64,000 nucleotides of DNA from a bacterium (GTDB lineage: Bacteria > Patescibacteriota > Microgenomatia > Levybacterales > UBA12049). Positions 5,834 to 22,381 of the stretch are shown here, one piece after another; the first letter of the stretch is position 1, and each line of letters opens with the position of its first letter. Under the pieces are notes generated by a model. The model was not told the origin of the DNA. It made no database searches and was given only the letters and a program-made list of their open reading frames with translations. Position numbers and translations under genes: made by a program. Where the stretch lies: contig JAJYWL010000007.1 of the NCBI GenBank assembly GCA_021791545.1, positions 3,972-67,971 of the forward strand. Reading direction: 5' to 3'.

Positions 5834-7954
5834 TTAAGGAGTAGGGGAAGGAGTGATAGTTAATCCGCCTTCGGTTGTTGCCGGTGTAGGAGTAGCGCTT
5901 ACTTTAGGTGTAGGGCTAACGGAAGGAGCAGGAATCTTTACCTGAGGATTCTGAGCCGGAAGTTTTGCAGAAGGTTCGTTTACTTTAAGTGTTTTTGAAC
6001 TAGCGGCTTCATTTTGTGCTGTTCCTTGATCTATCTGTTTTTGCAAGTCTGCTATTTCAGCATTTATCTTATCCAAGCTTGCTTTATCTTTCTGTACCAG
6101 CTGTTTTACCGTAAGAAGTTGTGTTTGGGCTCCTTTAAGATCTCCTTTTTGAATCAATGTATGGGCAAGATTATAGTATGCGTTAGCAAAGTCAGGTTTA
6201 AGGTTTGCTGCTGTTTGGAACTGTTCCTGGGCTTTATCCCATTGTCCGAGTTGATAGTATATTCCTCCCAAGTTTATATACTCCTGAGGATTATTAGGAT
6301 CAAGCATTGTTGCTTGCTGTGCTGTTGAGATGGCGAATGCATCTGCATTCTGACCGAATCCGATCAAACTTCTGTATATTGATGAAAGGTTCTGCCAGTT
6401 TGTTGCATCTTGTGGAGCAAGGGTAGTTGCCTGTCTTCCTGCGTTTATAGACTGCTGGATCAAGGTATAGATTGTCTGCTGTGTTTGTGCGCTTGGAGTC
6501 GCTCCTTTTGGTACAGAATTTGCCAATGAGTTGGCGAGTGCAAGGTTTGTTTGAGAGAACAATCTATAATATGAGTCATTGTTGTTAAACATACCGATTG
6601 CTTGATTCTGTAGTGTGTATGTTTGAGATCCGTTGTTTGCGGCAGCCGCAACTAATGATTTTTCAAATATTATGTTTGAATTGAGATAGTTAAAGCTTAC
6701 ATATCCTACTCCTAATGTAAATAGAAGTATTAACCCGAAAACTACATATGAAAGAATAGGGCTTATTCCTCTTTCTCTTCCGTCTACTGCCGATATTGCA
6801 AAGATACCTTTTTTGAATTGCACAAGCTGGAGTTCAACATCAAAGTATTTTCTTTCGTGTTTCAATCCCATGATTGCTGCATAGAGACCAAGAAGAATGA
6901 AGATAAGGGATGTTAATACGAAAGAGAAGGGCAATATGAATGCTGCAGCGAGTAAAAGAACCAATGGGATAAATAATGGTCTTTCTTTGACTGCTTTATA
7001 GCAAAGAAGTAGGAATGAGAGAAGGCCTAATAATCCGGTTGTTGCCAAGAGTTCCAATACTAAGCTTGAGCTCCTATAGAATGTAAGGGTCCATAGGGAT
7101 TGGTTAAGATTAAATGCTGCAGGTTTGAATCTCGTAAAGTCGTAAACATACGTTCCGTATCCAGAACCGAAGAGGAAGCCCTGAAGAATTCTTCCTGCAT
7201 CTTGAGATATGGCTGCAAATGCTGTCTGGAATCCTACAGATATTGGAAGAAGAACAGGGTTTTGAACAAAAACCATCTGATAAACTGATACTAAAAGCCC
7301 TATTAATATAGCGATTGATCCTATTCCTAGTCCTAATACCTGTACTCCGTCCGATTTTAGTTTCTCTCTATTTGAAACGTATGGAGAGAGAAGATATGCT
7401 CCTACTCCTAAGGCCATTAACAAATAGACGGCGAGGTCTAGGGTAGTGCCCATTGTAGTAAAACCTTGAACCTTTGCGAAATCAAACGGGAAAACATAAA
7501 CCTTAAAGAAGGAAAGAAGAGAAATAAGACCAGAAAGAGCAGCTCCTCCCAAGAAGCTATATAAAATTGCAAGAACCGATTTATGATCCTTTGCGTTATT
7601 TACAATAGCAAAGTAGGAAAGTGCTGCAAAAAGGAAAGGAACAAAGTTAATAAAAGAATTGACTCTGTTTAAAGAAAATACGCTTGAAAGAAGTACGGAT
7701 ACTATTAATAAGACAATAGGAAGATCAAAGACTGTTTTTCTCAATACCAATTTCTGCTGAAGAAGTACTTTTACCCCGAAAAGTAAAACCAGGACTAAAA
7801 TTGTGAAGGTTAGTATTGCTTGTTTAGGAAGTGTGAAAAAGTCTGTTGTGATTGAAGAGAAGGCGAGAGGAAATATGATCAATAATAATCCAACTAAAGC
7901 TGTTGAACTCTTGTCTAAATATTGGACTATATTGTTTTTAGTCTGCTCATCCAT
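5834..7954 (-). CDS. Polytopic membrane protein of O-antigen-ligase (Wzy_C)-like type with C-terminal TPR repeats and a P/T/S-rich tail.
   Basis: About 11 predicted TM helices in the first ~430 aa, then TPR-like repeats (YINLGGIYYQLGQWDKAQEQFQTAANLKPDFANAYYNLAHTLIQKGD), a coiled-coil, and a PT-rich C-terminus. It is co-directional with and immediately downstream of the giant surface-protein gene. Confidence 0.5.
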   Translation of the reverse strand: MDEQTKNNIVQYLDKSSTALVGLLLIIFPLAFSSITTDFFTLPKQAILTFTILVLVLLFGVKVLLQQKLVLRKTVFDLPIVLLIVSVLLSSVFSLNRVNSFINFVPFLFAALSYFAIVNNAKDHKSVLAILYSFLGGAALSGLISLLSFFKVYVFPFDFAKVQGFTTMGTTLDLAVYLLMALGVGAYLLSPYVSNREKLKSDGVQVLGLGIGSIAILIGLLVSVYQMVFVQNPVLLPISVGFQTAFAAISQDAGRILQGFLFGSGYGTYVYDFTRFKPAAFNLNQSLWTLTFYRSSSLVLELLATTGLLGLLSFLLLCYKAVKERPLFIPLVLLLAAAFILPFSFVLTSLIFILLGLYAAIMGLKHERKYFDVELQLVQFKKGIFAISAVDGRERGISPILSYVVFGLILLFTLGVGYVSFNYLNSNIIFEKSLVAAAANNGSQTYTLQNQAIGMFNNNDSYYRLFSQTNLALANSLANSVPKGATPSAQTQQTIYTLIQQSINAGRQATTLAPQDATNWQNLSSIYRSLIGFGQNADAFAISTAQQATMLDPNNPQEYINLGGIYYQLGQWDKAQEQFQTAANLKPDFANAYYNLAHTLIQKGDLKGAQTQLLTVKQLVQKDKASLDKINAEIADLQKQIDQGTAQNEAASSKTLKVNEPSAKLPAQNPQVKIPAPSVSPTPKVSATPTPATTEGGLTITPSPTP

Positions 7955-8029
7955 GTTAATAAAACTAATTTAACTGTTCAAAAATATAATGTCAAGGAGT
8001 AAATAGTAACTCCTTGTTCTTACTTATAT

Positions 8030-11000
8030 TTAATTGACAATAATCCAGTTAAATGGAATATTTGACGTTGCAAAATCGGGAAGTCCGACGGTAAATGACT
8101 GTCCCGCAACTTGTCTGATAAGGTAGATTACCTGGTTTTTTGTATCTGCTGTCGGCGTTATATAAATGAGTGATTTATCTGTTACAAGTGAATTATCTAT
8201 TGTTACTTCTTTTTGATGTGCTGCTATCCAGGCAGTTCCTGCTGAACCGGTTGCCGTAATTTCTGTTTCCGATAATGCTTGAGCAGGTTGTATTAGGCTT
8301 AAGTTAAGCTTTGCAAATGTTCCGGCACCGGAAGCTGTAAGATCTCCAGATTTTCCGTTAAGGCTAAGAATAGATGATCCTGTCGCATTTGTGACGTTAA
8401 GATTTGCCACTTTTCCGGATGGGGAGGCAAGGTTAATTGCCAAGTCATTTCCCGGAATTGGTGCAATAGCGTTGGCATATAGAGTTCCTTTAACTTGGAC
8501 ATCCGATCCGAAGGTTACGTTTCCGTTTGTATCTATATATACAAGACCTGCCATTATTGAGACTCCACCTTGTTTAAGAGGTTGAATGTTAAAGTCAGAA
8601 CCTAATACATTAATAGAGTTATTTGCAAGTATTAAGCTTCCGTTTATTGCTACCTGTCCTGTTATAGATACATCGGATAGGGAAGAAGGTCCAAATACTG
8701 TAAGTCCTTCGGAGAAGGCAGCAGTCTGGGAAGAAAGCGTGGGAACGTATGAAAGTTGTCCTGACATTGAAGATATATCCATATAACCCGTTCCTGTCTG
8801 TGTTTGGTTTGTTGTTCCTGAGGAAGTACTCGTTGAAGAGCCGTTTACAAGACCAAAGTTTGTGTTAGATGAAGGAGTACTATTATATACATTAGTAATA
8901 TTGGTTACATAAGTTGCAGAAGAGCTTCCTGAAACTATCTGATCAGCAATGATTTTCCCTACATGTAAAGTTCCAGAAATACTTGCATCATTTGTATCTA
9001 ACTGATTAGAGGTTAGCTTTCCACTGAAGCTGGCGTTGCCTTGATTATCTATTGTTGCAACGGCAGAACCGGAAGAATTATTTGTGTTCAAAACAGATAA
9101 TTTATCATTTTCAAACCTTAAAGCTACTGCTGAGCTTGTTGCAGTAGGGGCTATTAGATTTGTTTTAATAGAATCCGATGCAATAGGTGAGACAACTTGT
9201 CCATTTGCATTCTGACCAACTATGTTATTAACAATAGTAGCTATATAGTCTCCAAGGTTTTGTCCGTTTACAATTATTTGCTGTGCATTTACAACTCCTG
9301 CTCTTAGATTTGCGACTGCAAGTTGCGCAAATGCTCCAACTCTATCAATAGGATTTCCTAAAGCATCAGATATTGAATAGTAGTGGGGAACAGTAAAATC
9401 AGCGCTTGTTGTTGCTTGGTCAACAATGCTCATATCTCCTGTAGATGTAAGATAGACCTGGGGATCAGAAAATCCAGGTTTAATAAATACCAAAATTTTT
9501 CCGTATGCATAGCAGTCGGGCTCATTTTGAGTACAGGTAGAATCCAAAATTTGCCACTGTCCGTTTATTAGTCTTGCCGATTGGGTTGCACTTGAAGGAT
9601 CAAAATCTGTTAAAGCTGTTCCTACAACCATTCCTGCTTTGGTTGCTTTCATTCCAACTCCGGGAATTTCGCTTGATGTTACTAGGTCACCGACTTTAAT
9701 AGGGCCATTTTTAGAAGTGACTTTTACCGGAATACGTCCTGCAACTGTCAAGGGTCTTTCATTAGATTCCCAGAGATTGTCTGAATTAAAATTGTTATTA
9801 ATTAACATTCCCGGGTTTTCGCTTATTGCTCCTATTAAATCAGGTGAATATGGAGTACTTGTTTTCGAAGCTAAAGCTTTTTGGTAAATGTCTTTTACGC
9901 TGTTGTCATAATCTTTTGCAGCAACTATATCACCAGAATCAATCGATTGATCTTTTATTCTTATAGTTTCAGCGTAGTCAGGTGTGGTGCTTCCTGTAAT
10001 CGTACCTGCTGCTCTTATGATACCGGTTAAGCTGATTGATACAAGGCTTGTCCCACCGTTTCTTTCAAACATTAATTTTCCGGTTGTAGCAGAGCTTGCC
10101 GTCAGATAAGTGTCCATCCAATATGTTGAGTTTTGTGTCCATTTTAATCCTCCTTGTCCAGCTACGCTACCGCTACTTACAACAGTTACCCATTGTCCAG
10201 CCGATCCTGATGGATCCATGTATACGTTCCCATAGAAACCTGAGTTATCTATATTCAAAGCTGAAGATGATCCGTTTCCTCCGAGGTGAAGAGCACCAGC
10301 TGTATCCGCAACCAAGTACATGTCGGAATTACTGGTAGATCCGTCACCAACATACCCAATTCTTGTTCCACCGCTGTCATAAAAACCTAAATAGGCATTG
10401 CTTGTGGCTCCTGTAGCTTGACCATACAATCCTACATAATGGGTCTCGTTTATTCTCATGGCTAATGTCGGGTTTGTGTTTACTGCATTTATAGTGTTGA
10501 AATCAAAGTAACCTCCGGAGGTATCAGAAACAAATCCTATGCTTGCTGCTCCATACGTGCTTCTTGCGAATGCTCCGTCGCTTGATCTTCTGTTAATTGC
10601 AAGATAAGCAGCATCAATATATGTATCCATATACATTCTATTTCCGCTTGACGAGCCTATACTCCAGTTGGAATTAGCCGTCCCGTTGCCAATTGATAGA
10701 TTTTCGGCTGGGGATGTGTTTCCAATTCCGATGTTTCCACTTGATCCGGTAATTGTGCCTCCTCCGCTTCCAAGTTTAAGACTCGCTATAGCACTATTAC
10801 TATTTCCATAAAGACCAAGAGTATTTGCAACATCAATATCTGTAAAGAATGAATCGTCACCTACTTGAAGTAATTTTGCCCCAGGATTACTTCCGCTGTC
10901 TTCAATAAGTATGCCTCCATTAGTTCCTCCTCCGCCAAATACGTCCATTTTGTATCCTGAGGTAGGGCTGGTTACGTTGACTCCAATATTTCCGAGATGA

Positions 11001-14000
11001 TCTATCATCATCCTTGTCTGTGCTCCGGTAGCAAAAGAATTTGTGGTTGCAAAATACATCTTAGTTCCGTAGGCTCCGCTAGATTGTACATAAATACCAG
11101 CTTGAGCAGTATTGCCGGATGAAGATTGTCCTGCACCAAAGGTAATTCCATTAGCATAGTCAGCAACGTTTGTAGGTGCTGTTAAATGTATGCCATAAGT
11201 GGTAGCGAGTCCGGGAGTTGTTACATTTATGGTACTACTTTCGGATACATCTAATAAATCATTTGGAGCAGTTATTCCAATTCCAACGTCTCCTGTGCCC
11301 GTTATTACCATTCTTTGATTAGTACCGCCTGTTAAAAATGAAATTGGAGCATTGTTTCCTTGGAATATGTTTAGAGAGTTAGCTCCTCCATAACTTGCTA
11401 ATGCTGTTCCTCCTGCAAAAACACCCATGTTTTGAGCAGCATCGCTTTTAAGTAATAAATATGCATATCCTGCAGAATTGGTATTTTGTATCTCTCCAGT
11501 GATGCCGGATGAAGAATTTCCATAAATATGTAAAGGACTTGCAGGGCTATCTGTTCCTATTCCCATATTTCCACCATAGCTGTAAAAGGCGTAGGTAGGG
11601 TTAGTTTGTGTTCCAGCAGGAAGAGACGCAACTGAAGCAGAATTTGTTGGTGAAATTGTAATATTATTACTTGCGCTTAAAGCTGTGTATGTATATTCCT
11701 CATAGCTTGTTGGATTTTTAACATATAAAGTACCAGTAGTTGGTCCCGCATAGCTCGTTAGAACAAAGACTATGTTTGCTGCCTTAATTCCATAAAGATA
11801 AGAAGCCTGTAAAGAAACAATTGGGGGACTTCCAAATGCCGCCTGTTGTTTTACTTGCAAATGTACAAGGGCATTATCGTCAGATTGAGATCCTGCAGCG
11901 CCTTGTTTCGAGATTAAAATATCTGCTGTCCCATATCCATATTGGGCAGGAATACTTACAGATGCAATAGGGAAGTATTGATTTGTATAGGTACCTCCTC
12001 CTGTAGTTGTTGTCCACCCAGACATTATTCCTTGTTCGAATAATCCTATTCCTCCGGCAACATCAAGTTTCGTAGTCGTACCAGTAATAGAATATGTTCC
12101 TATTCCGGCAGCTCCTGCTGTCGTAAGAGAAGTTCCCGAAGCTGCTGGGTCAAGGAAGTATGAGTTGTTGTCCAAGTCAGTAAAGGATCTACCATATATA
12201 GAACCAAGATTTGTAACTTTAAATTGTAGTCTTCCAAGAGCAGGGGATAGACCTGATGAAGCATTTATTAAATCTCCTGCCCCGGTATTGCTGTCTATTC
12301 CTAAAGCAGGTCCACTTGTTGTTCCCGAGAAAGAAGCGATAGGAGTAGTTGCTGAACTTCCTCTTACATCTAAAGTCGCAAGGGGAGCTGATATGCCAAG
12401 GCCAAGATTTCCTAAATGGTCTAATCTCATTTTTTCTGTGTAGGTTGCTCCATTTCCTACCATAAACCCTATATAACCGCTTTGATCTGTGGCTGAGAAG
12501 GCAGCATCTGTTCCGAAATTTATTCTTCCGACATCTTTGAAACTCGTTCCGTTATATGCTCTACCTACAAGAGTAGTTACGTCGGAATTTGCTGTTGCTA
12601 TTGTAGGAGCTGCTTTTGTTCCTTTTGCAACCTGAAGAATTAAAGCAGATTGTCCTGTTGTGCTTCCCGTGTAATTATCTACTTCTACACTTGGATACCT
12701 TGGTGCAGTGCTTGAATCATTTTCTACTACTATTATAGAATTCATATCATTTCCTACCACATTTATTCCCCCTCCATAGCCTTTATTTGGAGTAACAATT
12801 AATTGTCCGCTAAATGAAGCTTGAGTTTGGTTTCCCATTAAACCTGTGAATGCAAAATCTGCAGATGCTGTCGAAGATCCCCCTATAAGAAGATCATCTC
12901 CAGATTGAACAGGGGATAGAGCACCCGAAAGTTCTTGCCAAAAGTTATATGTAGTCGGACATGTTCCCCAGGCAGGTATACTTGATCCGGAAAGAAGACA
13001 TTGTCCGGAAGTTGTTGTTGATGAGACTGAAGTAACAAGACCTGTTGAATTTGCAGAATAGAGTACTGCATTGTTTCCATTGTTATTAACAAGAGTAAGA
13101 GTTTTCCCTGTTGGTATTGTAGTATTTCCATTTAGAGAAACTGTTCCTGTTCCTGTTGCAAAATTACCAGTTCCTGACATTGTTATATTTCCTGAACCAT
13201 CAATGGTTAATCTTGTTGAAAGGGTTTCTGGGTTTACTCCTGATACTCCTGCGGTTGATGTCATAAAATATATGTTTCCTCCAGCAGCGTTTCCTGTAGA
13301 TATTCCGCTTGCTAGGGTAAGATTGGCTCCTGTAACGTTTGTACCTGATCCTCCGCTGGCGTGTAGTATAACTTGTCTGGGAGAAGCCGTAGTAACTCCG
13401 TTTCCAAGATAAAAATCTTGTATGTAGCTTGTGCCCGTATTTCCTCCTATAACTGCTTGATTCGACCCTGTCGCAATTGCGTTATACCCTAAAGCAAGAG
13501 AATAATTAAGGTTATTCGAAGACATATCTGCATATGCTCCGATTATGGTGTTATTGTTTCCAACAGTAGGAACTGTGCCTGCATATGCTCCTAGTAATAC
13601 ATTATCTGTTCCTCCTCCTAAATTAACTCCAGCTTGATATCCGAGTAAGGCATTTTCAGTACCTGTGCTCAAGTTTGTACCTGCGCTTGTTCCAACAGCT
13701 GTGTTGTATCCTGAAGCAGTAGGGTTGCCAGCAAATCCTCCTACAAATATATTTGAAGTGCCATAGGCAGAAAGTATATTTGTTCCTCTAAATGCATAGC
13801 CTGTATAGCTATTAACTCCTCCTCCGTATCCCTTGTTTGGCATTATGTTAAGTTGTCCGCTAAATGATGCTTGTGTCTGGTTTCCCATCAGACCTGTAAA
13901 TGCAAAATCTGCAGATGCTGTTGAAGAACCTCCTATAAGAAGATCATCACCTGGTTGAACGGGGGAGAGAGCACCTGCTAGTTCTTGCCAGAAGCCTGCC

Positions 14001-17000
14001 CCTCCATTTGTAAGAAGTACACCATTGGAATAGATATTTTGACCATATATGTTTCTCCACTGGTGTGTGGCATCTCCTAAATCTATCTGCTGATTGGTTG
14101 TAGGGGCAACATTTGATCCTGTTCCTCCGGAGGGAGCTATGGCTAGATTTCCTGAGGTAGCTAAAAGTTGGACATTGTTTGTAGTTGCTCCATCATAAAT
14201 TTGGATTCCTCCTGTTCCTCCTCCATAATCGTAGTTAAATCTAACAGCAGAAGTACCTCCGTTTGAAGATATATCCAAGATTCCGGATGCTCCTGTTTTT
14301 TTAATAACCGTATCTCCACTTGAAGCTGTAAAACTTAATCCATTTCCTGTTGTAGTTATAGCTCCGGTTGCATCAACTTGAAAATTGGAAGAAGATCCAA
14401 CGGAAAATAACGCAGCTGAATTGGAATTTCCTATTCCAACATATCCGGAGCTATTAATAGTAAGTCTATCTGTATACGTTTCTGCGCCATAGGCTGTTCC
14501 ATTGGTTCCTTGCTGAATCCTAAAATCAAAATTGCTGCTTGCCAAGTAAAGTCTTGCACCTGTTCCTATTCTATTTCCTGATGTAGTTCTGTAAAGAGTG
14601 ATTGCTGGATTAGCATTGCCCTGAACAGATTCTCCGATTGTTACCAATGAATTAGCTGAAAGAAGAAATTCTGCTGAACTCGATGCAAATGGAGTTACAG
14701 GAGTACTGGCTGAGACAGAATTTTTAAATACAGCTCCGTTTCTTACATCAAGCTGAGCAACTGGATTATTTGTTCCGATACCAACATTGCCAGCAAAATA
14801 GCCTTGTCCGTCTGCTCTCACGCTAAAATTGGTGGTTGAACCAGTTACTCCTTGAAAATAGGTGTTATTAGCACCCGTTAAATTGTCTGTTATTGCCTGG
14901 AATATTCCAGGCGCACCGTAAGAATATCCTGATCCTACTTGGTGTCCTGTAAAAAATACTTGCCCAGTTGTGCCCACTGATGCAACAGCACCGGTTGTAT
15001 TTACGGTAAATTGTCCATTGGAACTGTTGGGACCTACAGTTAAAAGTTGTCCTGGATTTGTTGTTCCTATTCCAACATTTCCTGAACTGGCTTGTATCGT
15101 CATCCAAGTAGACGTGGCATTCATGTTGGTAAATCTTAGATCAGCTCCCGTTCCGGCTCCCATTGCTGCACCTGCGCTTTCGATATAATTTATTCCACCG
15201 CTGGGAACGAATTTAAGTCCACTTAAGACGCTTGCTAGTGTTCCATTATCTCGGATATATTGAGTACCAAAAACATCTAGGTTAACTTGTGGAGCTGCTG
15301 TGCCTATACCAACATTGCCTTCTACAATAAGACCGTTTGAGGGAGGGGTAGTGGTGACATATGTTGATCCAATAGCCTGACTCCCGCTTACTTCCAATAC
15401 AGCTCCAGTATTACTATATGTTGCTCCTGTATTCGATAAAACAAAGCCACGACTAGTTGCTGCATTTAAAGAGACACCTCCCTGATAATTTGCTAGTATA
15501 TATGCATTATTGGCTGTTCCACTATTACGTCCAGTTAGGTTTAATTGAGCGTTTGCGCTTCCTGCTCCTGCGTCAATAGTAAAGGCTCCGGTAGTATGGC
15601 CGGTACCTGTTACGTCAAGAGTATATGCGGGAGTGTTTGTTCCAATTCCAACATTTCCTCCGTATCCATTATTTGGCATTACGATAAGTTGTCCGCTGAA
15701 GCTGGCTTGTGTCTGATGGTTTGCAAGTCCAAGTCCTGTGAATGCAAATTCGGCGGATGCTGTCGAAGATCCTCCTAGTAATAGATCATCTCCTGACTGA
15801 ATAGGGGACAGAGCTCCCGAAAGTTCTTGCCAGTAGTTATAGTTTCCTGTAGAACAGCTTCCCCATGAGGCATTTGCTCCTCCGATAAGACATTGTCCTG
15901 CTCCTGTTGAGGCTCCCAGTGTAATTGCTCCGGAAGTTAAGGTTAATCCGGTAGAGGCTGCTATTGCGCCTGATGAATTAACTTGGAATTGAGCCGAAGA
16001 TCCTACATTAAATAAGGATGTGGCTGTTGTTCCGCCTATTGTAAAGTTACCGTTGGTGGCAACCATATATCGTGGAGGATAGCTGGCTGAGGATGAATCA
16101 AAAACCAACGTTCCCGTGGGGATAGATGTAGAACCAGTTGGATTAGGGTAAACAGTAGCTTGAATAGATTCTGTAATATTATAGGAGATAGACGTATAGC
16201 TGGTTGCTTTGTGGTAAGTATAGACTGAAATTGATCCGTCTGTTTCCTGATAGGCCAGAATCTTAGCTTTACTTCTTACATCTCCAAATAGATCATATTC
16301 ATATTTAAAGCCATTTCTATTACCCATTAAGATATTGAATTGGGATTTTTGATTGCTGCCCCAGCCATCGTCAAGAATTCCGTTAATAACTATATGATCG
16401 TATGTCGCGCTTGTGGAAATTGGTAAAGTTGCTATTTTATAATAAGTGTCGGAAGCAGGATTAACTCCTGTTTGGCTCCAACCCCAAACGGTATTGTTTA
16501 TTTGTGCGCTATTTCCTACTACTTGAAGAGCAGTTTGTGGATTATTGGTTCCTATTCCTAAATTTCCACCAGTTAAATAAGAATTTCCACTGGAGCTAAG
16601 TTGGACAGTAGCGCTTGCTCCTGAATAATCGTTTATGCCCGGGCTTATTAGAAATGCTGAAGCATTAGCAGCGGAGTTGTTAAACTGAACAATTTTACCT
16701 GTTTGATCTAATCTAAAAGATTGATGACTAGTTGTATTGACAACATTGGTAAGATTTATAGTGGTAGCTTGAACCGTACCACTTGTGTTACCGGGTGTGC
16801 CATTCCCGATATTTATATATCCATCTCCTCCCCTTGAGATTCCCGTAGTGACTGATCCTGATCCGTTATCCCAACCAAGTGATCCTCCCGAACTTAAGGT
16901 TAAAAGTTGTCCTGGGTTTGTTGTTCCAATTCCAACATTTCCACTACTATTTATTACCATTGCCGTTCCTGTTCCAAAGGAATTATTATTAACATTAAAT

Positions 17001-19834
17001 TCAATTCCTTTGCCTGTAACCCCCTGAACTACAGTATTAAGGTTGGTTCCGTCGTATCCGAAGTAAGCTCTGGAATTTGCAGACAAATAAGATATATTAG
17101 ATGCACTGTCTACACCTGACGGAGTTAATTTAATAAAAGCATTTCCTGATGTATCTGAGATATCCAATTTTGCACCTGGGCTTGTTGTTCCAATCCCAAC
17201 ATTCCCTCCGTATCCGTTGTTTGGCATTACGATAAGTTGTCCGCTAAAGGAGGCTTGTGTTTGATGGTTAGCAAGTCCAAGTCCTGTAAAAGCAAATTCG
17301 GCAGATGAAGTTGAAGAACCTCCAATTAGCAGATCATCGCTTGAATTGATAGGGGAAAGAGCACCGGTTAATTCTTGCCAGAAATTATAGTTTCCCGTAG
17401 AGCAACTTCCCCAAGAAGGTGCGTAACCTGCTCCTGCTCCTGAAACCAAGCATTGTCCTGAAGTTGAGGTTGTAGCGGATGTCACTACTCCAGTTCCCGT
17501 AGTTGCATAGAGTACTGCGTTATTTCCGGTTATTCCTCCAAGAGTTAATGTTTTTCCGGAGGTAACTGTTGTATTACTATTTAACGTAATTGTTCCTGTT
17601 GAATTTCCGACTGAAACATTTCCCGTATTGGTAGTAGCAAGGTTTAAAGCACCAGTGCCATTAGGGATTATCGATAAATCATCGTTTGAAACAGTACCCA
17701 AAGTTGCTGCAGAGCCATTTCCTAAGTAAAGAGTAGTATTGGTGATGTTATTTCCGCTTATTGTAAGATTTTGCGCCAAGGTTAGACCAGAGCTCATGGA
17801 AAAGTAGCTCCCAGTTGTTTTGGTTATGGTTCCATCGCCAATTTTTATTCCTCCCGTTGTCCCATCGCCAAAAACCGAATTAGATGTTGAGTTTGCGGAT
17901 AAAATTCCTCCTGCAGTCACGTTTCCCGAAGCATCTACTGTAAATTTAGCTACTCCGCTTGCAGATGCACTTATTATCGGTCCTGTTGACCCTTGATTTA
18001 TTGTCACTGCGGATTGTCCGCTTGAAGTAGCAAGGACGGCAAACATGTCATCTACTTCAACTGCTCCCTGAGCGGTAGATATATTGTTATTGTATGAGCT
18101 ATTTTGTAATGGTTTTTGAAGATCAATCTTTCCTAAACCGTCCGGAGAAATAGTAACATTAGCATTTGAACCGACATTAGTGCCAAGCACAAGCGGTTGT
18201 CCTAATAGCTTGAATTGGCCGCCTGTTGCTTGAAATGTGGGAGTGGCGGTGCCTCCAATAGAAAGATTTCCTGAAGAATCCAAGGCCAGGATTACGTTTG
18301 TTGCCGAAGTAGTAGCCGTAGTCGGATACATTCCTTGGAGCGTTTCGGCGTTTGTTGCATACGCAACTGTAGCTAAAGGTTGTCTGGGAGTAAGTTCTGC
18401 AGTTTGTCCTACTGTTACTCCTAGCCACAAAGCGTTATTTTGCGTAAATACTTCCGGTGGAATAACAGAGTTTTGTCCTAAGAGGACATTGAATATTCCG
18501 TCGGTGTCGGGAGATACATAATCCGTCTCCTGCCATTTGAAAATTGTGGTTCCAGAATCCGATGCTGTAGCACTGGTATAAATACCAAAACGCAGCCACG
18601 TGGGGCTGGTGATTGGGTTATCGTTGCTGTCGGTCAGCCTACCCTGAAACGACAGTATTCTCGGTGGAGCCACGGGAGCGGCAGCAAGGATTGGACTTTG
18701 ATTTTTGGGATTATCAAAAAAGCTTGTATAGAATCCAAATCCTATTGCAGCCATTATTATTATCAAAACCGCAAAGTTAAGATAGTGGGCAAGTGGATAG
18801 GAGTGATATGTTTTATACCAGTTTGGTCTTTTATATCTCAGTGCAATCCAATACTTTTTGTAGGAAGGAAGGTTAGCTGTAGATATGGTTAAAGGAGCAT
18901 AGAATTCTTTCTTTATATTTGAGACTTTAAGAAAGTTATGATCCGGGATTTTAGCTTTGATTTCGCTAGATTTCTCCGTGAAAACATGTTTTCCTTTAAC
19001 TTTCCATGCTATATATTCGGCATTCCTTACGCCCTTAGCGAGAGTTTCGGTTATCGCTTTATCGAATATAGCTTGGAAACCTAATCCCATTTTTTGGGCT
19101 ACTCTAAGAGGAGGGAACCAAGAGTAGTTTTTAATTCTAGGTTCCTCAGTTTTTGAAAGTTCTTGTGAAATAGCTTCAGGTTGTGTTGTGAAAAAGGGAG
19201 TTTGATAATTTGTAATTTCAGGCTGTGCTTTTATGAAGCCTTCTTCTTGAGCCCAGGAAAGATATTTCCTTAGAGAAGATAGCTTCCTATTGACCGTGGT
19301 AGCAGAAAAATTATTGTGGGTGATTAACCTCTGTTTGTATTCCTCGATGAGTTCTTTGTTTATTTTCCCTACGGTTGGAAGGTCTGAGTTAGGAGTGACC
19401 GTCTCAGCCCAGGTAAGGAATTGTCGAATATCAATGATATAGTTCTTTATAGTAAGATTCGATGCGTTGAATACATAGAGGTAGTTTTTAAATTCCTTTA
19501 TGTGCCATGGATCTTTAACCTCGACGGGTTGAGGAAGGACAGCTTTGAATGGATCACTAGAGATATATCCTTCAAGCTTAAGAAAGTAGAAGAACTTTCT
19601 AAGTGATGACATGTGCCTATCAAGTGAGCTTTCGGAAAGAACGGAGGCTGATTGTGTTTTATAATTTCGTATTGTTTCAAAGCTTATCTCGGAGGGGGAG
19701 AAAGCTTTCTTGTATTGGTCTTCAAAGAATTTAATGAAATGATTTATGTCCGATAGATAATTTTTTACCGTAACCTTTGAAGGCTGGTTCTTTTGTGATA
19801 ATAAATAATTTTTAAACTGGGCAAGTATATCCAT
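8030..19834 (-). CDS. Giant (3,934 aa) membrane-anchored surface protein. It has an N-terminal cytoplasmic region with two tandem phage-integrase SAM-like (core-binding) domains, a single TM helix, and a ~3,500-aa beta-rich repeat ectodomain.
   Basis: First SAM-like copy: ILAQFKNYLLSQKNQPSKVTVKNYLSDINHFIKFFE...SLDRHMSSLRKFFYFLKLEGYISSDP. Second copy: IKEFKNYLYVFNASNLTIKNYIIDIRQFLTWAE...TVNRKLSSLRKYLSWAQEEGFI. Both match the integrase N-terminal consensus (aflehL...lsenTlraYrrdlrrF..fl...s.rsiarrlsalrsfyryl). TM helix YLNFAVLIIIMAAIGFGFYTSFF. Many fibre-like repeats (GNVGIGTT(N/S)P..(L/V)). Four long internal repeats (CSTGNYN(F/Y)WQEL.GALSP..SGDDLLIGGSSTASAEFAFTGL...SFSGQLIVMPN.GYGG). S/T/N/G-rich. 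Confidence 0.85.
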   Translation of the reverse strand: MDILAQFKNYLLSQKNQPSKVTVKNYLSDINHFIKFFEDQYKKAFSPSEISFETIRNYKTQSASVLSESSLDRHMSSLRKFFYFLKLEGYISSDPFKAVLPQPVEVKDPWHIKEFKNYLYVFNASNLTIKNYIIDIRQFLTWAETVTPNSDLPTVGKINKELIEEYKQRLITHNNFSATTVNRKLSSLRKYLSWAQEEGFIKAQPEITNYQTPFFTTQPEAISQELSKTEEPRIKNYSWFPPLRVAQKMGLGFQAIFDKAITETLAKGVRNAEYIAWKVKGKHVFTEKSSEIKAKIPDHNFLKVSNIKKEFYAPLTISTANLPSYKKYWIALRYKRPNWYKTYHSYPLAHYLNFAVLIIIMAAIGFGFYTSFFDNPKNQSPILAAAPVAPPRILSFQGRLTDSNDNPITSPTWLRFGIYTSATASDSGTTIFKWQETDYVSPDTDGIFNVLLGQNSVIPPEVFTQNNALWLGVTVGQTAELTPRQPLATVAYATNAETLQGMYPTTATTSATNVILALDSSGNLSIGGTATPTFQATGGQFKLLGQPLVLGTNVGSNANVTISPDGLGKIDLQKPLQNSSYNNNISTAQGAVEVDDMFAVLATSSGQSAVTINQGSTGPIISASASGVAKFTVDASGNVTAGGILSANSTSNSVFGDGTTGGIKIGDGTITKTTGSYFSMSSGLTLAQNLTISGNNITNTTLYLGNGSAATLGTVSNDDLSIIPNGTGALNLATTNTGNVSVGNSTGTITLNSNTTVTSGKTLTLGGITGNNAVLYATTGTGVVTSATTSTSGQCLVSGAGAGYAPSWGSCSTGNYNFWQELTGALSPINSSDDLLIGGSSTSSAEFAFTGLGLANHQTQASFSGQLIVMPNNGYGGNVGIGTTSPGAKLDISDTSGNAFIKLTPSGVDSASNISYLSANSRAYFGYDGTNLNTVVQGVTGKGIEFNVNNNSFGTGTAMVINSSGNVGIGTTNPGQLLTLSSGGSLGWDNGSGSVTTGISRGGDGYINIGNGTPGNTSGTVQATTINLTNVVNTTSHQSFRLDQTGKIVQFNNSAANASAFLISPGINDYSGASATVQLSSSGNSYLTGGNLGIGTNNPQTALQVVGNSAQINNTVWGWSQTGVNPASDTYYKIATLPISTSATYDHIVINGILDDGWGSNQKSQFNILMGNRNGFKYEYDLFGDVRSKAKILAYQETDGSISVYTYHKATSYTSISYNITESIQATVYPNPTGSTSIPTGTLVFDSSSASYPPRYMVATNGNFTIGGTTATSLFNVGSSAQFQVNSSGAIAASTGLTLTSGAITLGASTGAGQCLIGGANASWGSCSTGNYNYWQELSGALSPIQSGDDLLLGGSSTASAEFAFTGLGLANHQTQASFSGQLIVMPNNGYGGNVGIGTNTPAYTLDVTGTGHTTGAFTIDAGAGSANAQLNLTGRNSGTANNAYILANYQGGVSLNAATSRGFVLSNTGATYSNTGAVLEVSGSQAIGSTYVTTTPPSNGLIVEGNVGIGTAAPQVNLDVFGTQYIRDNGTLASVLSGLKFVPSGGINYIESAGAAMGAGTGADLRFTNMNATSTWMTIQASSGNVGIGTTNPGQLLTVGPNSSNGQFTVNTTGAVASVGTTGQVFFTGHQVGSGYSYGAPGIFQAITDNLTGANNTYFQGVTGSTTNFSVRADGQGYFAGNVGIGTNNPVAQLDVRNGAVFKNSVSASTPVTPFASSSAEFLLSANSLVTIGESVQGNANPAITLYRTTSGNRIGTGARLYLASSNFDFRIQQGTNGTAYGAETYTDRLTINSSGYVGIGNSNSAALFSVGSSSNFQVDATGAITTTGNGLSFTASSGDTVIKKTGASGILDISSNGGTSAVRFNYDYGGGTGGIQIYDGATTNNVQLLATSGNLAIAPSGGTGSNVAPTTNQQIDLGDATHQWRNIYGQNIYSNGVLLTNGGAGFWQELAGALSPVQPGDDLLIGGSSTASADFAFTGLMGNQTQASFSGQLNIMPNKGYGGGVNSYTGYAFRGTNILSAYGTSNIFVGGFAGNPTASGYNTAVGTSAGTNLSTGTENALLGYQAGVNLGGGTDNVLLGAYAGTVPTVGNNNTIIGAYADMSSNNLNYSLALGYNAIATGSNQAVIGGNTGTSYIQDFYLGNGVTTASPRQVILHASGGSGTNVTGANLTLASGISTGNAAGGNIYFMTSTAGVSGVNPETLSTRLTIDGSGNITMSGTGNFATGTGTVSLNGNTTIPTGKTLTLVNNNGNNAVLYSANSTGLVTSVSSTTTSGQCLLSGSSIPAWGTCPTTYNFWQELSGALSPVQSGDDLLIGGSSTASADFAFTGLMGNQTQASFSGQLIVTPNKGYGGGINVVGNDMNSIIVVENDSSTAPRYPSVEVDNYTGSTTGQSALILQVAKGTKAAPTIATANSDVTTLVGRAYNGTSFKDVGRINFGTDAAFSATDQSGYIGFMVGNGATYTEKMRLDHLGNLGLGISAPLATLDVRGSSATTPIASFSGTTSGPALGIDSNTGAGDLINASSGLSPALGRLQFKVTNLGSIYGRSFTDLDNNSYFLDPAASGTSLTTAGAAGIGTYSITGTTTKLDVAGGIGLFEQGIMSGWTTTTGGGTYTNQYFPIASVSIPAQYGYGTADILISKQGAAGSQSDDNALVHLQVKQQAAFGSPPIVSLQASYLYGIKAANIVFVLTSYAGPTTGTLYVKNPTSYEEYTYTALSASNNITISPTNSASVASLPAGTQTNPTYAFYSYGGNMGIGTDSPASPLHIYGNSSSGITGEIQNTNSAGYAYLLLKSDAAQNMGVFAGGTALASYGGANSLNIFQGNNAPISFLTGGTNQRMVITGTGDVGIGITAPNDLLDVSESSTINVTTPGLATTYGIHLTAPTNVADYANGITFGAGQSSSGNTAQAGIYVQSSGAYGTKMYFATTNSFATGAQTRMMIDHLGNIGVNVTSPTSGYKMDVFGGGGTNGGILIEDSGSNPGAKLLQVGDDSFFTDIDVANTLGLYGNSNSAIASLKLGSGGGTITGSSGNIGIGNTSPAENLSIGNGTANSNWSIGSSSGNRMYMDTYIDAAYLAINRRSSDGAFARSTYGAASIGFVSDTSGGYFDFNTINAVNTNPTLAMRINETHYVGLYGQATGATSNAYLGFYDSGGTRIGYVGDGSTSNSDMYLVADTAGALHLGGNGSSSALNIDNSGFYGNVYMDPSGSAGQWVTVVSSGSVAGQGGLKWTQNSTYWMDTYLTASSATTGKLMFERNGGTSLVSISLTGIIRAAGTITGSTTPDYAETIRIKDQSIDSGDIVAAKDYDNSVKDIYQKALASKTSTPYSPDLIGAISENPGMLINNNFNSDNLWESNERPLTVAGRIPVKVTSKNGPIKVGDLVTSSEIPGVGMKATKAGMVVGTALTDFDPSSATQSARLINGQWQILDSTCTQNEPDCYAYGKILVFIKPGFSDPQVYLTSTGDMSIVDQATTSADFTVPHYYSISDALGNPIDRVGAFAQLAVANLRAGVVNAQQIIVNGQNLGDYIATIVNNIVGQNANGQVVSPIASDSIKTNLIAPTATSSAVALRFENDKLSVLNTNNSSGSAVATIDNQGNASFSGKLTSNQLDTNDASISGTLHVGKIIADQIVSGSSSATYVTNITNVYNSTPSSNTNFGLVNGSSTSTSSGTTNQTQTGTGYMDISSMSGQLSYVPTLSSQTAAFSEGLTVFGPSSLSDVSITGQVAINGSLILANNSINVLGSDFNIQPLKQGGVSIMAGLVYIDTNGNVTFGSDVQVKGTLYANAIAPIPGNDLAINLASPSGKVANLNVTNATGSSILSLNGKSGDLTASGAGTFAKLNLSLIQPAQALSETEITATGSAGTAWIAAHQKEVTIDNSLVTDKSLIYITPTADTKNQVIYLIRQVAGQSFTVGLPDFATSNIPFNWIIVN
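12765..17430 (-). repeat. Four dispersed in-frame direct repeats (~180-230 bp each, ~80-85% nt identity) inside the giant gene.
   Basis: Near-identical DNA blocks at about 12765-12945, 13815-13995, 15650-15900 and 17200-17430. An example shared string is gtccgctaaatga.gcttg.g...tgcaaa.tc.gcagatg...gttcttgcca. Confidence 0.7.
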
Positions 19835-20404
19835 TGATTTAAATAATAAATTCTTGTGAAAATTCCTCTATAGCCTCGAGATTATACAGATTATACGGTT
19901 TATATCCGTGAAAAAAAGATTTATTACTCATACTATTAGAATAAAGAAAATTTTTCACCACTGTCAAGGACCTAGAGTATTATTAGATGAGATAGATTGT
20001 TAAGGATTGATATACTTGTTGTTGAAGGTGGTATTGGTGAAATAGGGTAGTGAAAAGGCTGTTTATGCCCCTGAGGCTAGTAAATTAGATAAAATAGCTA
20101 TATCTTAATGTATCAAACTAGACTTTCATCTAATTTTGGGGTAGTTGTTGATTTTGATATATTTGCCTAGAAAATGGCCGAGTTGTGTAAAATTAATCTA
20201 AGATCAGGAGGGTAGTTTAGCCTCACTCTTAGCAGATATATGGTGTGAGTGATAGGTATTTTCACATAGGGGTTTGGATTGATCTGGCGGGCTGTTTTAA
20301 ATCTATTCTAGTTTTATTCGTATGTCTCTAGCTTCGTCTATGATTTATAAAGATTTTAGTACCTTAACTGTTGTATTCCCTGAGTTTATTATACAATATA
20401 ACTA

Positions 20405-21268: not shown

Positions 21269-21390
21269 TCTTTTGTCAGATGAGAGAGTAGGGAAACTCC
21301 TTTATATTCTTCCTTTTAAGTTCTCTAGTCAGTTCTAAGTAGATAAGAATAAGAGAGACAGTGAGCAAAACAATTCACTAAGCCAAGTGT

Positions 21391-22377: not shown

Positions 22378-22381
22378 ATTT

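What the first reader, a model, noticed from the sequence alone, without database searches (positions are those of the whole stretch)
8030..19834. Giant surface protein begins with two tandem phage-integrase core-binding (SAM-like) domains in the cytoplasm
The first ~200 residues of the 3,934-aa protein contain two consecutive segments that each fit the tyrosine-recombinase N-terminal SAM-like DNA-binding domain. These are F..YL...T...Y..D...F..F...(30-40 aa)...S..R.lSsLRkf..fl..eG. There is no catalytic domain (no R...HxxR...Y). A ~370-aa cytoplasmic region is followed by one TM helix and ~3,500 aa of extracellular beta-rich fibre repeats. A DNA-binding module of phage-recombinase origin fused to an enormous surface fibre is not a described architecture. 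It suggests a membrane-tethered DNA-binding protein that couples surface events to the nucleoid or gene expression, in a one-component ToxR-like fashion, or that anchors DNA at the envelope. ComEA/ComEC lie 9 kb away.
Basis: partly seen in the sequence, partly recalled or inferred. Interest (0 to 1): 0.75.

Follow-up and report, generated by a model that had tools for sequence, protein, structure and literature searches.

The report
Giant surface fibre with cytoplasmic recombinase DNA-binding domains
A 3,934-residue phage-tail-fibre-like surface protein of a Levybacteria (CPR) bacterium begins, inside the cell, with two integrase-type DNA-binding domains but has no recombinase catalytic domain, and it may be an adhesin wired directly to DNA because its gene always carries its own conserved 9-bp repeat element next to the promoter.

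Summary
ORF 8030..19834 (-) encodes 3,934 aa. Residues 1-100 and 108-205 are two tyrosine-recombinase core-binding (SAM-like) domains (Pfam E 1e-22; AlphaFold pLDDT >90; best structural matches XerA, Brujita Int and lambda Int CB). There is no catalytic domain. The only hydrophobic helix is 347-374. The N side is basic (pI >9) and the 3,560-aa C side is acidic and G/T/S/N-rich.

It is not a one-off. It belongs to a Levybacteria-wide family (264 species genomes; 677 clusters at 50% identity; complete members 1,212-6,048 aa), always with this fusion and in conserved synteny, and NCBI names it "site-specific integrase". The ectodomain is phage-fibre-like: it has a Bdellovibrio MAT beta-helix segment and a G2/S74 intramolecular-chaperone domain.

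Three new points bear on the DNA-binding reading:
- The residues conserved in at least 95% of members lie in helices B and D, which contact DNA in recombinases.
- A conserved promoter followed by 2-3 tandem repeats of CGTATAATC sits upstream of essentially every family member and nowhere else.
- The same window encodes a MerR-HTH + TM + fibre-like protein.

My best reading is a membrane-tethered, probably trimeric fibre whose cytoplasmic domains bind its own leader DNA. DNA binding itself is untested. I found no support for a link to ComEA/ComEC.

The parts
8030..19834 (-). Whole gene: 3,934-aa bitopic giant protein. It is monocistronic, with its own promoter and a terminator-like hairpin.
19535..19834 (-). 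Core-binding (SAM-like) domain 1, residues 1-100. Helices A 3-12, B 20-41, C 52-63, D 68-87.
   Evidence: Pfam; AF2; Foldseek. Residues conserved in at least 95% of members: T22 K24 N25 Y26 D29 F33 (helix B) and S70 R73 S76 S77 L78 K80 F81 (helix D).
19220..19513 (-). Core-binding (SAM-like) domain 2, residues 108-205. Helices 112-121, 126-146, 160-172, 178-197.
   Evidence: Residues conserved in at least 95% of members: T128 I129 K130 N131 Y132 D135 F139 W142 and N182 R183 K184 L185 S186 S187 R189.
18797..19129 (-). Family-specific conserved cytoplasmic juxtamembrane module, residues 236-346. Motifs YSxFPPxRLxQK, NIxKxxYAPLxIST and RPxWYKxYHSY. No detectable homology to anything, including recombinase catalytic domains.
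18713..18796 (-). Single transmembrane helix (signal-anchor), residues 347-374.
16835..18712 (-). Conserved membrane-proximal ectodomain, residues 375-~1000, beginning APPRILSFQGRLTD.
10028..16834 (-). Hypervariable fibre shaft, residues ~1000-3270. G/T/S/N-rich, with GNVGIGT motifs and four ~75-aa WQELxGALSP modules, three of them preceded by a Cys pair. Length differs from 0 to ~2,600 aa or more between orthologues.
   Evidence: weak PHROG tail-fibre hits
12353..12631 (-). Segment (residues ~2402-2494) homologous to the beta-helix of the Bdellovibrio MAT trimeric fibre Bd1334.
   Evidence: 8oml/8on4, E 5e-9; PMC10769870
9791..10036 (-). Peptidase_G2-like intramolecular-chaperone autoproteolytic domain, residues 3267-3348, with a DYAE motif nearby. 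The match is borderline in this protein.
   Evidence: E 2.4e-5, 24.3 bits against a cut-off of 25. Above the cut-off in homologue P0080 (27.3 bits). On record for the L002 homologue.
8033..10027 (-). Conserved C-terminal ~660 aa (G2 domain to the end ...FNWIIVN), shared by all complete orthologues.
19938..19967 (-). Conserved sigma70-type promoter, TTGACA-18-TATTCT. TTGAC occurs within 110 nt upstream of 188 of 191 motif instances.
19871..19905 (-). Conserved gene-specific cis element: three tandem 9-bp direct repeats (ATATAAACC GTATAATCT GTATAATCT) followed by CGAGGCTA. It lies ~+26 to +60 from the predicted transcription start, and its 3' end is 36 nt upstream of the ATG.
19856..19862 (-). 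TTTTCAC box at fixed spacing downstream of the repeats. A second copy lies at 19908-19914 upstream of them. It is enriched in a subset of orthologous leaders.
   Evidence: 45 of 168 against 1.9 expected; 17 of 168 against 1.6 expected
7993..8016 (-). Terminator-like hairpin immediately after the stop codon.

Best explanation
The gene encodes a membrane-anchored (N-in, C-out), probably homotrimeric, phage-tail-fibre-like surface fibre of a Levybacteria (CPR/Patescibacteria) cell. Scaled from a solved Bdellovibrio fibre fragment, the fibre would be on the order of 100 nm long.

The cytoplasmic tail carries two Xer-type core-binding domains that have lost the recombinase catalytic domain but kept their DNA-contacting helices. 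I infer that these domains bind the 2-3 tandem CGTATAATC repeats that lie just downstream of the gene's own conserved promoter. A trimer would present six such domains. Binding there would tether the gene to the membrane and feed back on its transcription. That feedback could be repression that counts fibres made. It could act in cis from the nascent chain during the minutes needed to translate 12 kb. It could also be modulated when the fibre engages a host cell, in a ToxR-like one-component manner.

Shown: the fold, the topology signals, family-wide conservation of the fusion, the phage-fibre homology, and the exclusive association of the repeat element with this gene family. Inferred: DNA binding, the repeats as the target, trimerisation, and the direction of regulation.
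For: - Fold and absence of a catalytic domain.
- Single TM helix with positive-inside charge asymmetry.
- The fusion is universal. Of 80 genome loci, 36 have complete ORFs of 1,346-3,747 aa, 43 run off the contig or locus end (10 of those beyond 3,730 aa), and none is a short stand-alone version. There are 677 representative clusters at E<=1e-30, up to 6,048 aa long.
- Across 136 non-identical members, the residues conserved in at least 95% are concentrated in helices B and D of both domains. In Cre, lambda Int and Xer these two helices enter the DNA major groove (established knowledge). The Xer pattern R..S..RR.F is kept as R..SS.RK.F.
- The cis element GTATAATCNGTATAATC occurs once in the 64-kb window (0.03 expected). 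In 82 loci it occurs only upstream of this gene.
- A blind metagenome scan with the 25-nt motif returned 80 loci. In 69 the family gene lies directly downstream on the same strand, and the other 11 have 0-1,319 nt of sequence left downstream of the motif.
- The element is positioned relative to a conserved promoter. It has no conserved RNA structure (0 pairs) and no Rfam match.
- An unrelated, undisputed DNA-binding domain occupies the same position in analogous proteins. The window's own MerR-HTH + TM + fibre-like protein at 56898-59060 shows this. So does P0102, which combines a MerR HTH and a TM helix with the same fibre modules and C-terminus.
- There is precedent for recombinase folds reused as repressors that bind repeated elements: MrpR (PMC10516654) and SroF (PDB 9rd5).
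- Ectodomain homology to MAT fibres and to phage intramolecular-chaperone domains.
Against: - No experiment or model shows that these domains bind DNA.
- Isolated core-binding domains of recombinases bind DNA weakly without the catalytic domain (established knowledge).
- The repeats contain perfect TATAAT hexamers. They could therefore be tandem -10 boxes or sigma-dependent pause sites, or the target of another factor.
- The repeat core is invariant, so no protein/site covariation can be used to link it to the CB domains.
- Trimerisation is inferred only from homology.
- The Peptidase_G2 hit in this protein is just below Pfam's cut-off.
- The C-terminal structure model is poor (pLDDT 46).
- The MerR-type analogue found by sequence search (P0102) is a single sequence.
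Confidence: 0.4

Rival explanations
1. The CB domains do bind DNA, but not (or not only) their own leader. They would tether the nucleoid or another locus to the envelope, or control a wider regulon. The upstream repeats would then serve RNA polymerase (tandem -10 boxes or sigma-dependent promoter-proximal pausing, for example to load an elongation or antitermination factor for a 12-kb gene) or another regulator.
For: The repeats carry consensus TATAAT and lie ~+26 to +51 from a conserved promoter. The conserved helices B and D argue for DNA binding in general, not for a particular target. A conserved zf_Tbcl protein and other genes sit in the same syntenic block.
Against: The 17-25 nt element, including the non-TATAAT positions (C/N spacers, YTYGWRGCT), is conserved across orthologues with only 35-57% protein identity and is found only at this gene. 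An ordinary promoter feature would not be expected to be this specific. No second copy exists in the 64-kb window even with 3 mismatches.
Confidence: 0.2
2. The tandem CB domains no longer bind DNA. They would be a cytoplasmic protein-protein or structural module, for example an oligomerisation plug, an anchor to a cytoskeletal or secretion partner, or a chaperone-like pre-export domain for the giant fibre.
For: The catalytic domain that normally completes the C-clamp on DNA is missing. A further conserved cytoplasmic module of unknown function (residues 236-346) is present and could be the true functional part. Net charge per domain is only +3 to +4.
Against: The conserved polar residues are those of the recombinase DNA-contact helices, not only the hydrophobic core. 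An unrelated bona fide DNA-binding HTH replaces the CB domains in analogous TM-fibre proteins, which is hard to explain by a structural role. A dedicated cis element co-occurs with the family.
Confidence: 0.25
3. The N-terminal ~375 residues are separated from the fibre after export. This could happen by signal-peptidase-like cleavage after the TM helix near LAAAPVAPP, or by intramembrane proteolysis. Fibre and DNA-binding stub would then act independently. The stub could be released into the cytoplasm as a soluble regulator, as in RIP or MyRF, or stay behind as a by-product.
For: A conserved small-residue motif (LAAxPxAPP) follows the TM helix. The family uses phage autoproteolytic IMC domains elsewhere in the protein. 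MyRF is a precedent for a DNA-binding domain combined with a phage IMC domain and a TM helix (established knowledge; S74/MyRF is mentioned in PMC10769870).
Against: Pro at the +1 position after AAA disfavours signal peptidase I. The IMC domain is extracellular and ~2,900 residues from the TM helix, so it cannot release the cytoplasmic domain. No protease site could be tested.
Confidence: 0.12
4. Artefact: a mis-assembly, a frameshifted pseudogene, or a wrongly called start fuses an integrase remnant to an unrelated surface-protein gene.
For: Some long-read assemblies split the gene by frameshifts (L001, L002).
Against: The same continuous architecture with the same start (M-x-x-L-x-x-F) is seen in more than 130 independent assemblies. 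The exact protein is on record from three sources.
Confidence: 0.01

Closest known systems
ToxR/CadC/TcpP-type bitopic membrane-bound transcription regulators
   Same: An N-terminal cytoplasmic DNA-binding domain, a single TM helix and a C-terminal extracytoplasmic domain. ToxR binds direct repeats near promoters.
   Different: The DNA-binding fold here is a tandem recombinase core-binding domain, not an OmpR-type winged helix. The outside part is a 3,560-aa fibre rather than a small sensor domain. DNA binding and regulation are untested.
XerC/XerD-type tyrosine recombinases (the NCBI name for the family is 'site-specific integrase')
   Same: The core-binding (SAM-like) domain is clearly homologous (XerC model E 3.6e-25). 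The R..S..R(R/K).F pattern of helix D is retained.
   Different: The CB domain is duplicated in tandem and there is no catalytic domain (no R-K-H-R-H/W-Y). The protein therefore cannot recombine DNA, and the database name is a misannotation.
MrpR (YopR) and SroF, master repressors of SPbeta-like phages
   Same: Tyrosine-recombinase-derived proteins that have lost recombination and act as sequence-specific DNA binders on repeated elements (PMC10516654; PDB 9rd5 appears among the fold hits).
   Different: They are soluble and keep both recombinase domains. This protein keeps only CB domains (two of them) and is membrane-anchored to a fibre.
Bdellovibrio MAT (mosaic adhesive trimer) fibres and phage tail fibres/tailspikes with S74/G2 intramolecular chaperone domains
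   Same: A beta-helical fibre segment homologous to Bd1334 (E 5e-9), a G/T/S/N-rich repetitive shaft, and IMC-type autoproteolytic domains (G2-like here, S74-like in some orthologues). The role in recognising another cell's surface is plausible for an episymbiont.
   Different: MAT fibres have a signal peptide and a conserved N-terminal surface-anchor domain. This family uses a TM signal-anchor with a 346-aa cytoplasmic DNA-binding tail. The IMC domain here is followed by ~590 more conserved residues instead of lying at the C-terminus.
MyRF (eukaryotic membrane-bound transcription factor with a phage S74 ICA domain)
   Same: It combines a DNA-binding domain, a phage-derived trimerising or autoprocessing domain and one TM helix in a single polypeptide.
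   Different: In MyRF the ICA domain lies on the same side as the DNA-binding domain and before the TM helix, and it releases the DBD. Here the IMC domain is extracellular and distant. The DBD is Ndt80-type in MyRF.
MerR-HTH + TM + fibre-like proteins (window 56898-59060; P0102)
   Same: The same layout in the same genome: a cytoplasmic recombinase-type DNA-binding domain, one TM helix and a G/T/S/N-rich ectodomain with GxVGIGT motifs. P0102 even shares the G2-like domain and the C-terminal end.
   Different: The DNA-binding fold differs: a MerR/HTH_17 domain whose closest relatives are IS607-type serine recombinases. These proteins are shorter (720-1,085 aa), and an inverted repeat rather than direct repeats lies in the leader.

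Membership tests
Tyrosine recombinase / phage integrase (XerC/D-like) | N-terminal core-binding (SAM-like) four-helix domain | tested here: met
   Pfam PF02899 E 1.2e-22, two copies. AF2 plus Foldseek hit XerA, Brujita Int and lambda CB.
Tyrosine recombinase / phage integrase (XerC/D-like) | C-terminal catalytic domain with R-K-H-R-H/W-Y active site | tested here: not met
   No Phage_integrase hit at E<=1 in 3,934 aa. Xer models match only their first ~95-133 positions. A profile of residues 206-346 finds no recombinase in PDB or Pfam.
ToxR-like bitopic membrane transcription regulators | Cytoplasmic N-terminal DNA-binding domain, single TM helix, extracytoplasmic C-terminal domain | tested here: met
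   One hydrophobic segment at 345-374. The N side has net charge +18 and the C side has pI 4.56. The domain order was confirmed. The topology is predicted, not measured.
ToxR-like bitopic membrane transcription regulators | OmpR/PhoB-type winged-helix DNA-binding domain | tested here: not met
   Only Phage_int_SAM families hit the N-terminus.
ToxR-like bitopic membrane transcription regulators | Sequence-specific binding to promoter-proximal repeats and control of transcription | not testable with these tools
   A candidate operator was found, but binding is untested.
MAT / phage tail-fibre superfamily | Beta-helical trimeric fibre repeats homologous to known fibres | tested here: met
   Matches to 8oml/8on4 (Bd1334) at E 5e-9. 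Weak PHROG tail-fibre hits. Weak Foldseek tailspike hits on a low-confidence model.
MAT / phage tail-fibre superfamily | Intramolecular chaperone autoproteolytic domain (Peptidase_S74 or G2) | tested here: inconclusive
   In the window protein G2 scores 24.3 bits against a cut-off of 25. Orthologues P0080 (27.3 bits) and P0079/P0081/P0085/P0086 (precomputed PF11962) pass, as do S74 (PF13884) fragments.
MAT / phage tail-fibre superfamily | Homotrimer formation | not testable with these tools
   Only monomer prediction is available. The monomer model of the C-terminal 705 aa is poor (pLDDT 46).
MAT / phage tail-fibre superfamily | Signal peptide plus the conserved MAT N-terminal surface-anchor domain | tested here: not met
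   The N-terminus is CB-CB-JM-TM. There is no N-terminal signal peptide.
MyRF-like self-cleaving membrane transcription factors | IMC/ICA domain between the DNA-binding domain and the TM helix, so that autocleavage frees the DBD | tested here: not met
   The G2-like domain lies at residues 3267-3348, ~2,900 residues beyond the TM helix on the outside.

The most novel reading that the evidence does not exclude
A giant host-binding fibre is itself a transcription factor. Its cytoplasmic tandem recombinase-derived domains would bind iterated 9-bp sites in its own leader, possibly already as a nascent chain in cis. Production, assembly or mechanical engagement of a ~100-nm adhesin would then be reported directly to DNA without any intermediary. 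This would be a one-polypeptide adhesin-to-gene signalling device specific to ultra-small CPR cells. A MerR-HTH version of the same layout in the same genome suggests it may not be limited to one DNA-binding fold.
Probability: 0.3. Interest if true: 0.9.

Novelty: new variant of a known kind. Interest (0 to 1): 0.72.

Why it matters
Patescibacteria/CPR make up a large share of bacterial diversity, and most are thought to live attached to host cells. How they sense and regulate attachment is unknown, and they have few classical regulators. A conserved, order-wide family that joins a phage-fibre-type adhesin to recombinase-derived DNA-binding domains through one TM helix, together with a dedicated cis element, gives a directly testable model for contact- or production-coupled gene control. 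It would also be a new case of recombinase DNA-binding modules exapted as regulators. It corrects a systematic database misannotation, since hundreds of these proteins are called "site-specific integrase". It also supplies a short DNA motif that acts as a near-perfect genomic marker for the family.

Tried and rejected
- **RNA element in the leader.** Rfam gave only noise hits (E>=0.66, far below gathering scores). RNAalifold on 46 orthologous leaders predicted 0 pairs. I rejected a conserved RNA structure.
- **Vestigial catalytic domain in residues 206-346.** A profile search against PDB, and per-member Pfam scans, gave nothing related. Rejected as undetectable.
- **Link to ComEA/ComEC.** Only neighbourhood supports it. 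LeuRS and surface-protein genes lie between them, and the co-occurrence seen in flanks (27 and 21 of 82 loci) reflects general synteny. There is no functional evidence.
- **PDB 9i5v 'RaiA' hit to CB1.** The paper modelled only 34 residues of that protein, in the tRNA site. It is not informative for a ribosome-binding role of CB domains.
- **C-terminal 705-aa structure.** Mean pLDDT is 46. The Foldseek hits to phage tailspikes cover only ~74 residues, so I used them as weak support only.
- **afdb50 fold search.** The library was not available.
- **The search for homologous proteins.** It returned only proteins of about 1,200 aa or less, mostly contig-end fragments. I took full lengths from genome loci and the representative library instead.
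- **Literature.** Six searches for the architecture found no description.
- **Protein/site covariation.** The GTATAAT core is invariant, so this test is not possible.
Full report
**Observation.** The minus-strand ORF 8030..19834 encodes 3,934 aa. Pfam finds Phage_int_SAM_1 with E 1.2e-22 in two stretches (residues 5-89 and 113-194), and SAM_4 and SAM_5 also score above their cut-offs. NCBIfam XerC/XerD/XerA models match only with their first ~95-133 positions, and no catalytic-domain family hits anywhere in the protein.

I predicted the structure of residues 1-400 with AlphaFold2, using an alignment of 25 homologues. Both domains come out as four-helix bundles with pLDDT >90. Every top Foldseek hit in the PDB is a tyrosine-recombinase core-binding domain: XerA 5hxy, Brujita integrase 5vfz, 3nrw (TM 0.80, rmsd 1.7 A) and lambda Int CB 2oxo.

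The protein has a single hydrophobic segment (345-374, KD 2.15). The N-terminal 350 residues are basic (net +18, pI >9). The remaining 3,560 residues are acidic (pI 4.56) and rich in G, T, S and N. All of this fits an N-in/C-out signal-anchor protein.

**It is a family, not an oddity.** The N-terminal 400 aa finds 61 homologues. Nearly all come from Patescibacteria MAGs, most are truncated at contig ends, and NCBI names them "site-specific integrase, partial". The alignment shows the whole cytoplasmic module is conserved:
- CB1 and CB2;
- a variable linker;
- a YSxFPPxRLxQK motif with a long helix;
- NIxKxxYAPLxIST;
- RPxWYKxYHSY;
- the TM helix, followed by APPRILSFQGRLTD outside.

A scan of one genome per GTDB species found 264 genomes encoding a relative. 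The best 80 are almost all Candidatus Levybacteria, although many records carry an implausible "uncultured Gammaproteobacteria" title. I read each ORF through from the matched start. Thirty-six are complete at 1,346-3,747 aa. Forty-three run off the contig or the 10-kb flank, ten of them beyond 3,730 aa. None is a short stand-alone CB protein.

A profile search of 1.8 billion representative proteins gives 677 clusters at E<=1e-30. Complete members are 1,212-6,048 aa long, and the ones I inspected all begin with the two CB domains. The exact window protein is on record from NCBI, ENA and Logan on a 420-kb contig, without a name.

Synteny is conserved. An Ig-like/CarboxypepD_reg-like membrane protein is encoded divergently upstream. 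Beyond it lies a cluster of secreted or anchored surface proteins including a WxLIP peptidoglycan-binding protein, then LeuRS and ComEA/ComEC. Downstream lie a protein with 10 TM helices plus TPR repeats, and a zf_Tbcl protein. The gene has its own promoter-like site and a terminator-like hairpin.

**The ectodomain.** Orthologues share the first ~650-1,000 residues and the last ~600-690 residues. The middle varies in length from nearly nothing to more than 2,600 residues. Residues ~2402-2494 match the beta-helix of the Bdellovibrio MAT fibre Bd1334 (8oml/8on4, E 5e-9). MAT fibres are surface-exposed trimeric prey-recognition fibres related to phage tail fibres, some with S74 autoproteolytic chaperone domains (PMC10769870).

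Residues 3267-3348 match Peptidase_G2, the intramolecular-chaperone autocleavage domain of the phi29 appendage type. The match has E 2.4e-5 and scores 24.3 bits against a cut-off of 25. Orthologues pass the threshold (P0080 at 27.3 bits; several precomputed hits). Other orthologues carry an S74-type domain instead. Weak PHROG tail-fibre hits and weak tailspike fold hits on a poor model point the same way.

The published Bd2133 fragment measures 142 A for 370 residues. Scaling from that, the fibre would be on the order of 100 nm long. This is an inference. A homotrimer is likely by homology but untested.

**Evidence bearing on the function of the CB domains.**
- *Conservation.* Among 136 non-identical members, the positions conserved in at least 95% fall in two helices of each domain. 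In the model's second helix (B) they are T22 K24 N25 Y26 D29 F33 and T128 I129 K130 N131 Y132 D135 F139. In the fourth helix (D) they are S70 R73 S76 S77 L78 K80 F81 and N182 R183 K184 L185 S186 S187 R189. In Cre, lambda Int and Xer recombinases, helices B and D are the ones that enter the major groove next to the crossover region (established knowledge). The conserved polar and basic residues argue that a ligand-binding surface has been kept, not only a fold.
- *No catalytic remnant.* Residues 206-346 show no detectable relation to recombinase catalytic domains or to anything else.
- *A dedicated cis element.* The leaders of orthologous genes share a striking module: CTCTAGGnCCTTGACA-N17/18-TATTCTAAT(A/T)GTATG, then ~25 nt later (G)ATAA(T/A)CN GTATAATCN GTATAAT(C/T)T (C/T)G(A/T)(G/A)GCTA. 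In the window the three 9-mers are at 19879-19905 (-).
- *The element is specific to this gene.* The two-unit core occurs once in 64 kb, with 0.03 expected. No further copy appears even with three mismatches. In 82 related loci it occurs only upstream of this gene.
- *A blind scan confirms the link.* I scanned metagenomes with the 25-nt motif alone, and 80 loci were fetched. In 69 of them the CB-CB gene lies directly downstream on the same strand, 2-722 nt away. The other 11 have only 0-1,319 nt of sequence left downstream of the motif. One of these (L156) still shows the syntenic upstream neighbour.
- *Layout of the element.* TTGAC lies 40-77 nt upstream in 188 of 191 instances. Of 168 distinct instances, 103 have three in-register units and 65 have two. 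A TTTCAC box is enriched at fixed offsets.
- *Not an RNA structure.* The element has no conserved RNA secondary structure and no Rfam match. It is therefore a primary-sequence element tied to the promoter. Its unit GTATAA resembles the inner arm (R-C/T-ATAA) of dif and lox core sites, which is the part contacted by CB domains. This resemblance comes from established site sequences and is weak evidence for an AT-rich hexamer.
- *An independent analogue.* The window's ORF 56898-59060 (+) has a MerR-family HTH (residues 6-54, 46.4 bits), one TM helix (96-114) and a ~600-aa G/T/S/N-rich ectodomain with a GNYVGIGT motif. It is homologous over HTH, TM and proximal ectodomain to P0102 (E 2e-21). P0102 combines a MerR HTH with the same fibre modules, a G2-like domain and the same C-terminal end as the giant family.
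- *Origin of that HTH.* Its nearest relatives are IS607-type serine recombinases. Two unrelated recombinase-derived DNA-binding folds therefore occupy the same cytoplasmic position on TM-fibre scaffolds.
- *Leaders of the MerR-type genes.* Both carry a perfect inverted repeat between promoter and start: TTGGACA-N14-TGTCCAA in the window and AAAATCTA-N11-TAGATTTT in L198. These are two single cases and I could not assess their significance.

**Interpretation.** The most economical reading is a bitopic, probably trimeric, phage-fibre-like adhesin whose cytoplasmic tandem CB domains bind DNA, most plausibly the iterated 9-mers in its own leader. This is ToxR-like in logic but uses a different fold and an enormous ectodomain.

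Because the N-terminus is made about 3,700 codons before the protein is finished, cis-action of the nascent chain on its own gene is physically plausible. It would offer a simple way to limit or couple expression of a very costly gene. This step is inference.

Soluble precedents exist for recombinase folds acting as repressors of repeated elements: MrpR and SroF (PDB 9rd5). The rivals are these:
- The repeats serve RNA polymerase (tandem -10 boxes or sigma-dependent pausing) or another factor, while the CB domains bind elsewhere.
- The CB domains are now a non-DNA structural or protein-binding module.
- The stub is proteolytically separated from the fibre.

None of these can be excluded computationally. 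An assembly or annotation artefact is excluded by the comparative data.

**Comparison and novelty.** The protein is not a tyrosine recombinase, because the catalytic domain is absent, so the database name is wrong. It shares the layout but not the fold of ToxR-type regulators. It shares fibre and IMC modules with MAT and phage fibres but not their anchoring. It differs from MyRF in the position of the IMC domain. I found no paper describing the architecture in the searchable library. I rate it a new variant of known kinds, namely the membrane-tethered one-component regulator and the trimeric fibre adhesin, with an unusually concrete and testable cis-element prediction.

Noticed in passing
window 56898-59060 (+); leader 56796-56869: A second protein follows the pattern 'cytoplasmic DNA-binding domain + one TM helix + fibre-like ectodomain'. 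It has a MerR/HTH_17 HTH (residues 6-54), a TM helix (96-114) and a ~600-aa G/T/S/N-rich ectodomain with GNYVGIGT. A perfect inverted repeat TTGGACA-N14-TGTCCAA (56842-56869) lies between a TTGACA promoter box (56796-56801) and the start codon. The protein is homologous to P0102. The closest relatives of P0102's HTH are IS607-type serine recombinases.
   Followed up: partly
L198 3547-3912 (downstream of P0102): The MerR-HTH/TM/fibre protein P0102 is followed by a 23S_rRNA_IVP/bAvd-like gene, the accessory protein type of diversity-generating retroelements. This hints that such fibres may be DGR targets. The contig ends soon after.
   Followed up: no
window 5834-7954 (-): A conserved downstream neighbour is a 706-aa protein with ~10 TM helices and C-terminal TPR repeats. 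This resembles O-antigen-ligase or PMT-type glycosyltransferases, so it may modify the Ser/Thr-rich fibre. It has its own TTGACA promoter right after the giant gene's terminator hairpin.
   Followed up: partly
window 20405-26255: A conserved cluster of secreted or C-terminally anchored surface proteins lies upstream of the giant gene in most orthologous loci. It includes an Ig-like/CarboxypepD_reg-like protein, three hypothetical proteins, a WxLIP peptidoglycan-binding-domain protein and a 5-TM protein.
   Followed up: partly
window residues 819, 1335, 1949, 2299 of the giant protein (about 17378, 15830, 13988, 12938 on the minus strand): Four near-identical ~75-aa modules (WQELxGALSPxxxxDDLLIGGSSTxSAxFAFTGL...QASFSGQL) occur in the fibre shaft, and three of them are preceded by a CxxGxxxxxxWGxC cysteine pair. 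The protein's other two cysteines are at residues 3434 and 3441. P0102 carries a similar module. These look like recurring junction modules between fibre segments.
   Followed up: no
L027, L029, L036 (upstream of the family gene): In some orthologues the canonical repeats lie 500-700 nt upstream. The intervening space contains many degenerate copies of an ATCCGYGWAAATC-like unit, which suggests expanded arrays of the same element.
   Followed up: no
Genome contigs record titles (L008, L010, L013, L018, L058 and others): Many contigs that carry this Levybacteria-specific locus and synteny are titled 'uncultured Gammaproteobacteria bacterium', including a 1.61-Mb chromosome (OZ246394.1). This is probably placeholder or wrong taxonomy in the records.
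   Followed up: no
PDB 9i5v chain 14 (hit of CB1): The 401-aa Porphyromonas gingivalis protein deposited as 'RaiA' has an N-terminal region (residues 8-103) similar to a Xer-type core-binding domain (E 2.6e-5). It appears to be a recombinase-like protein with a hibernation-factor-like part. Only 34 residues were modelled on the ribosome.
   Followed up: partly
window 29225-31304 (+): ComEC is split into two genes: a Competence-domain gene (411 aa) and a separate, overlapping metallo-beta-lactamase gene (284 aa), with ComEA directly upstream.
   Followed up: no
window 5397-5693 (+): A 98-aa double treble-clef zinc-finger protein (zf_Tbcl + zf_Tbcl_2) is conserved in synteny with the giant gene in distant orthologous loci (L001, L002; 18 of 82 loci within the available flanks). 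It could be an alternative nucleic-acid-binding factor for the locus.
   Followed up: no
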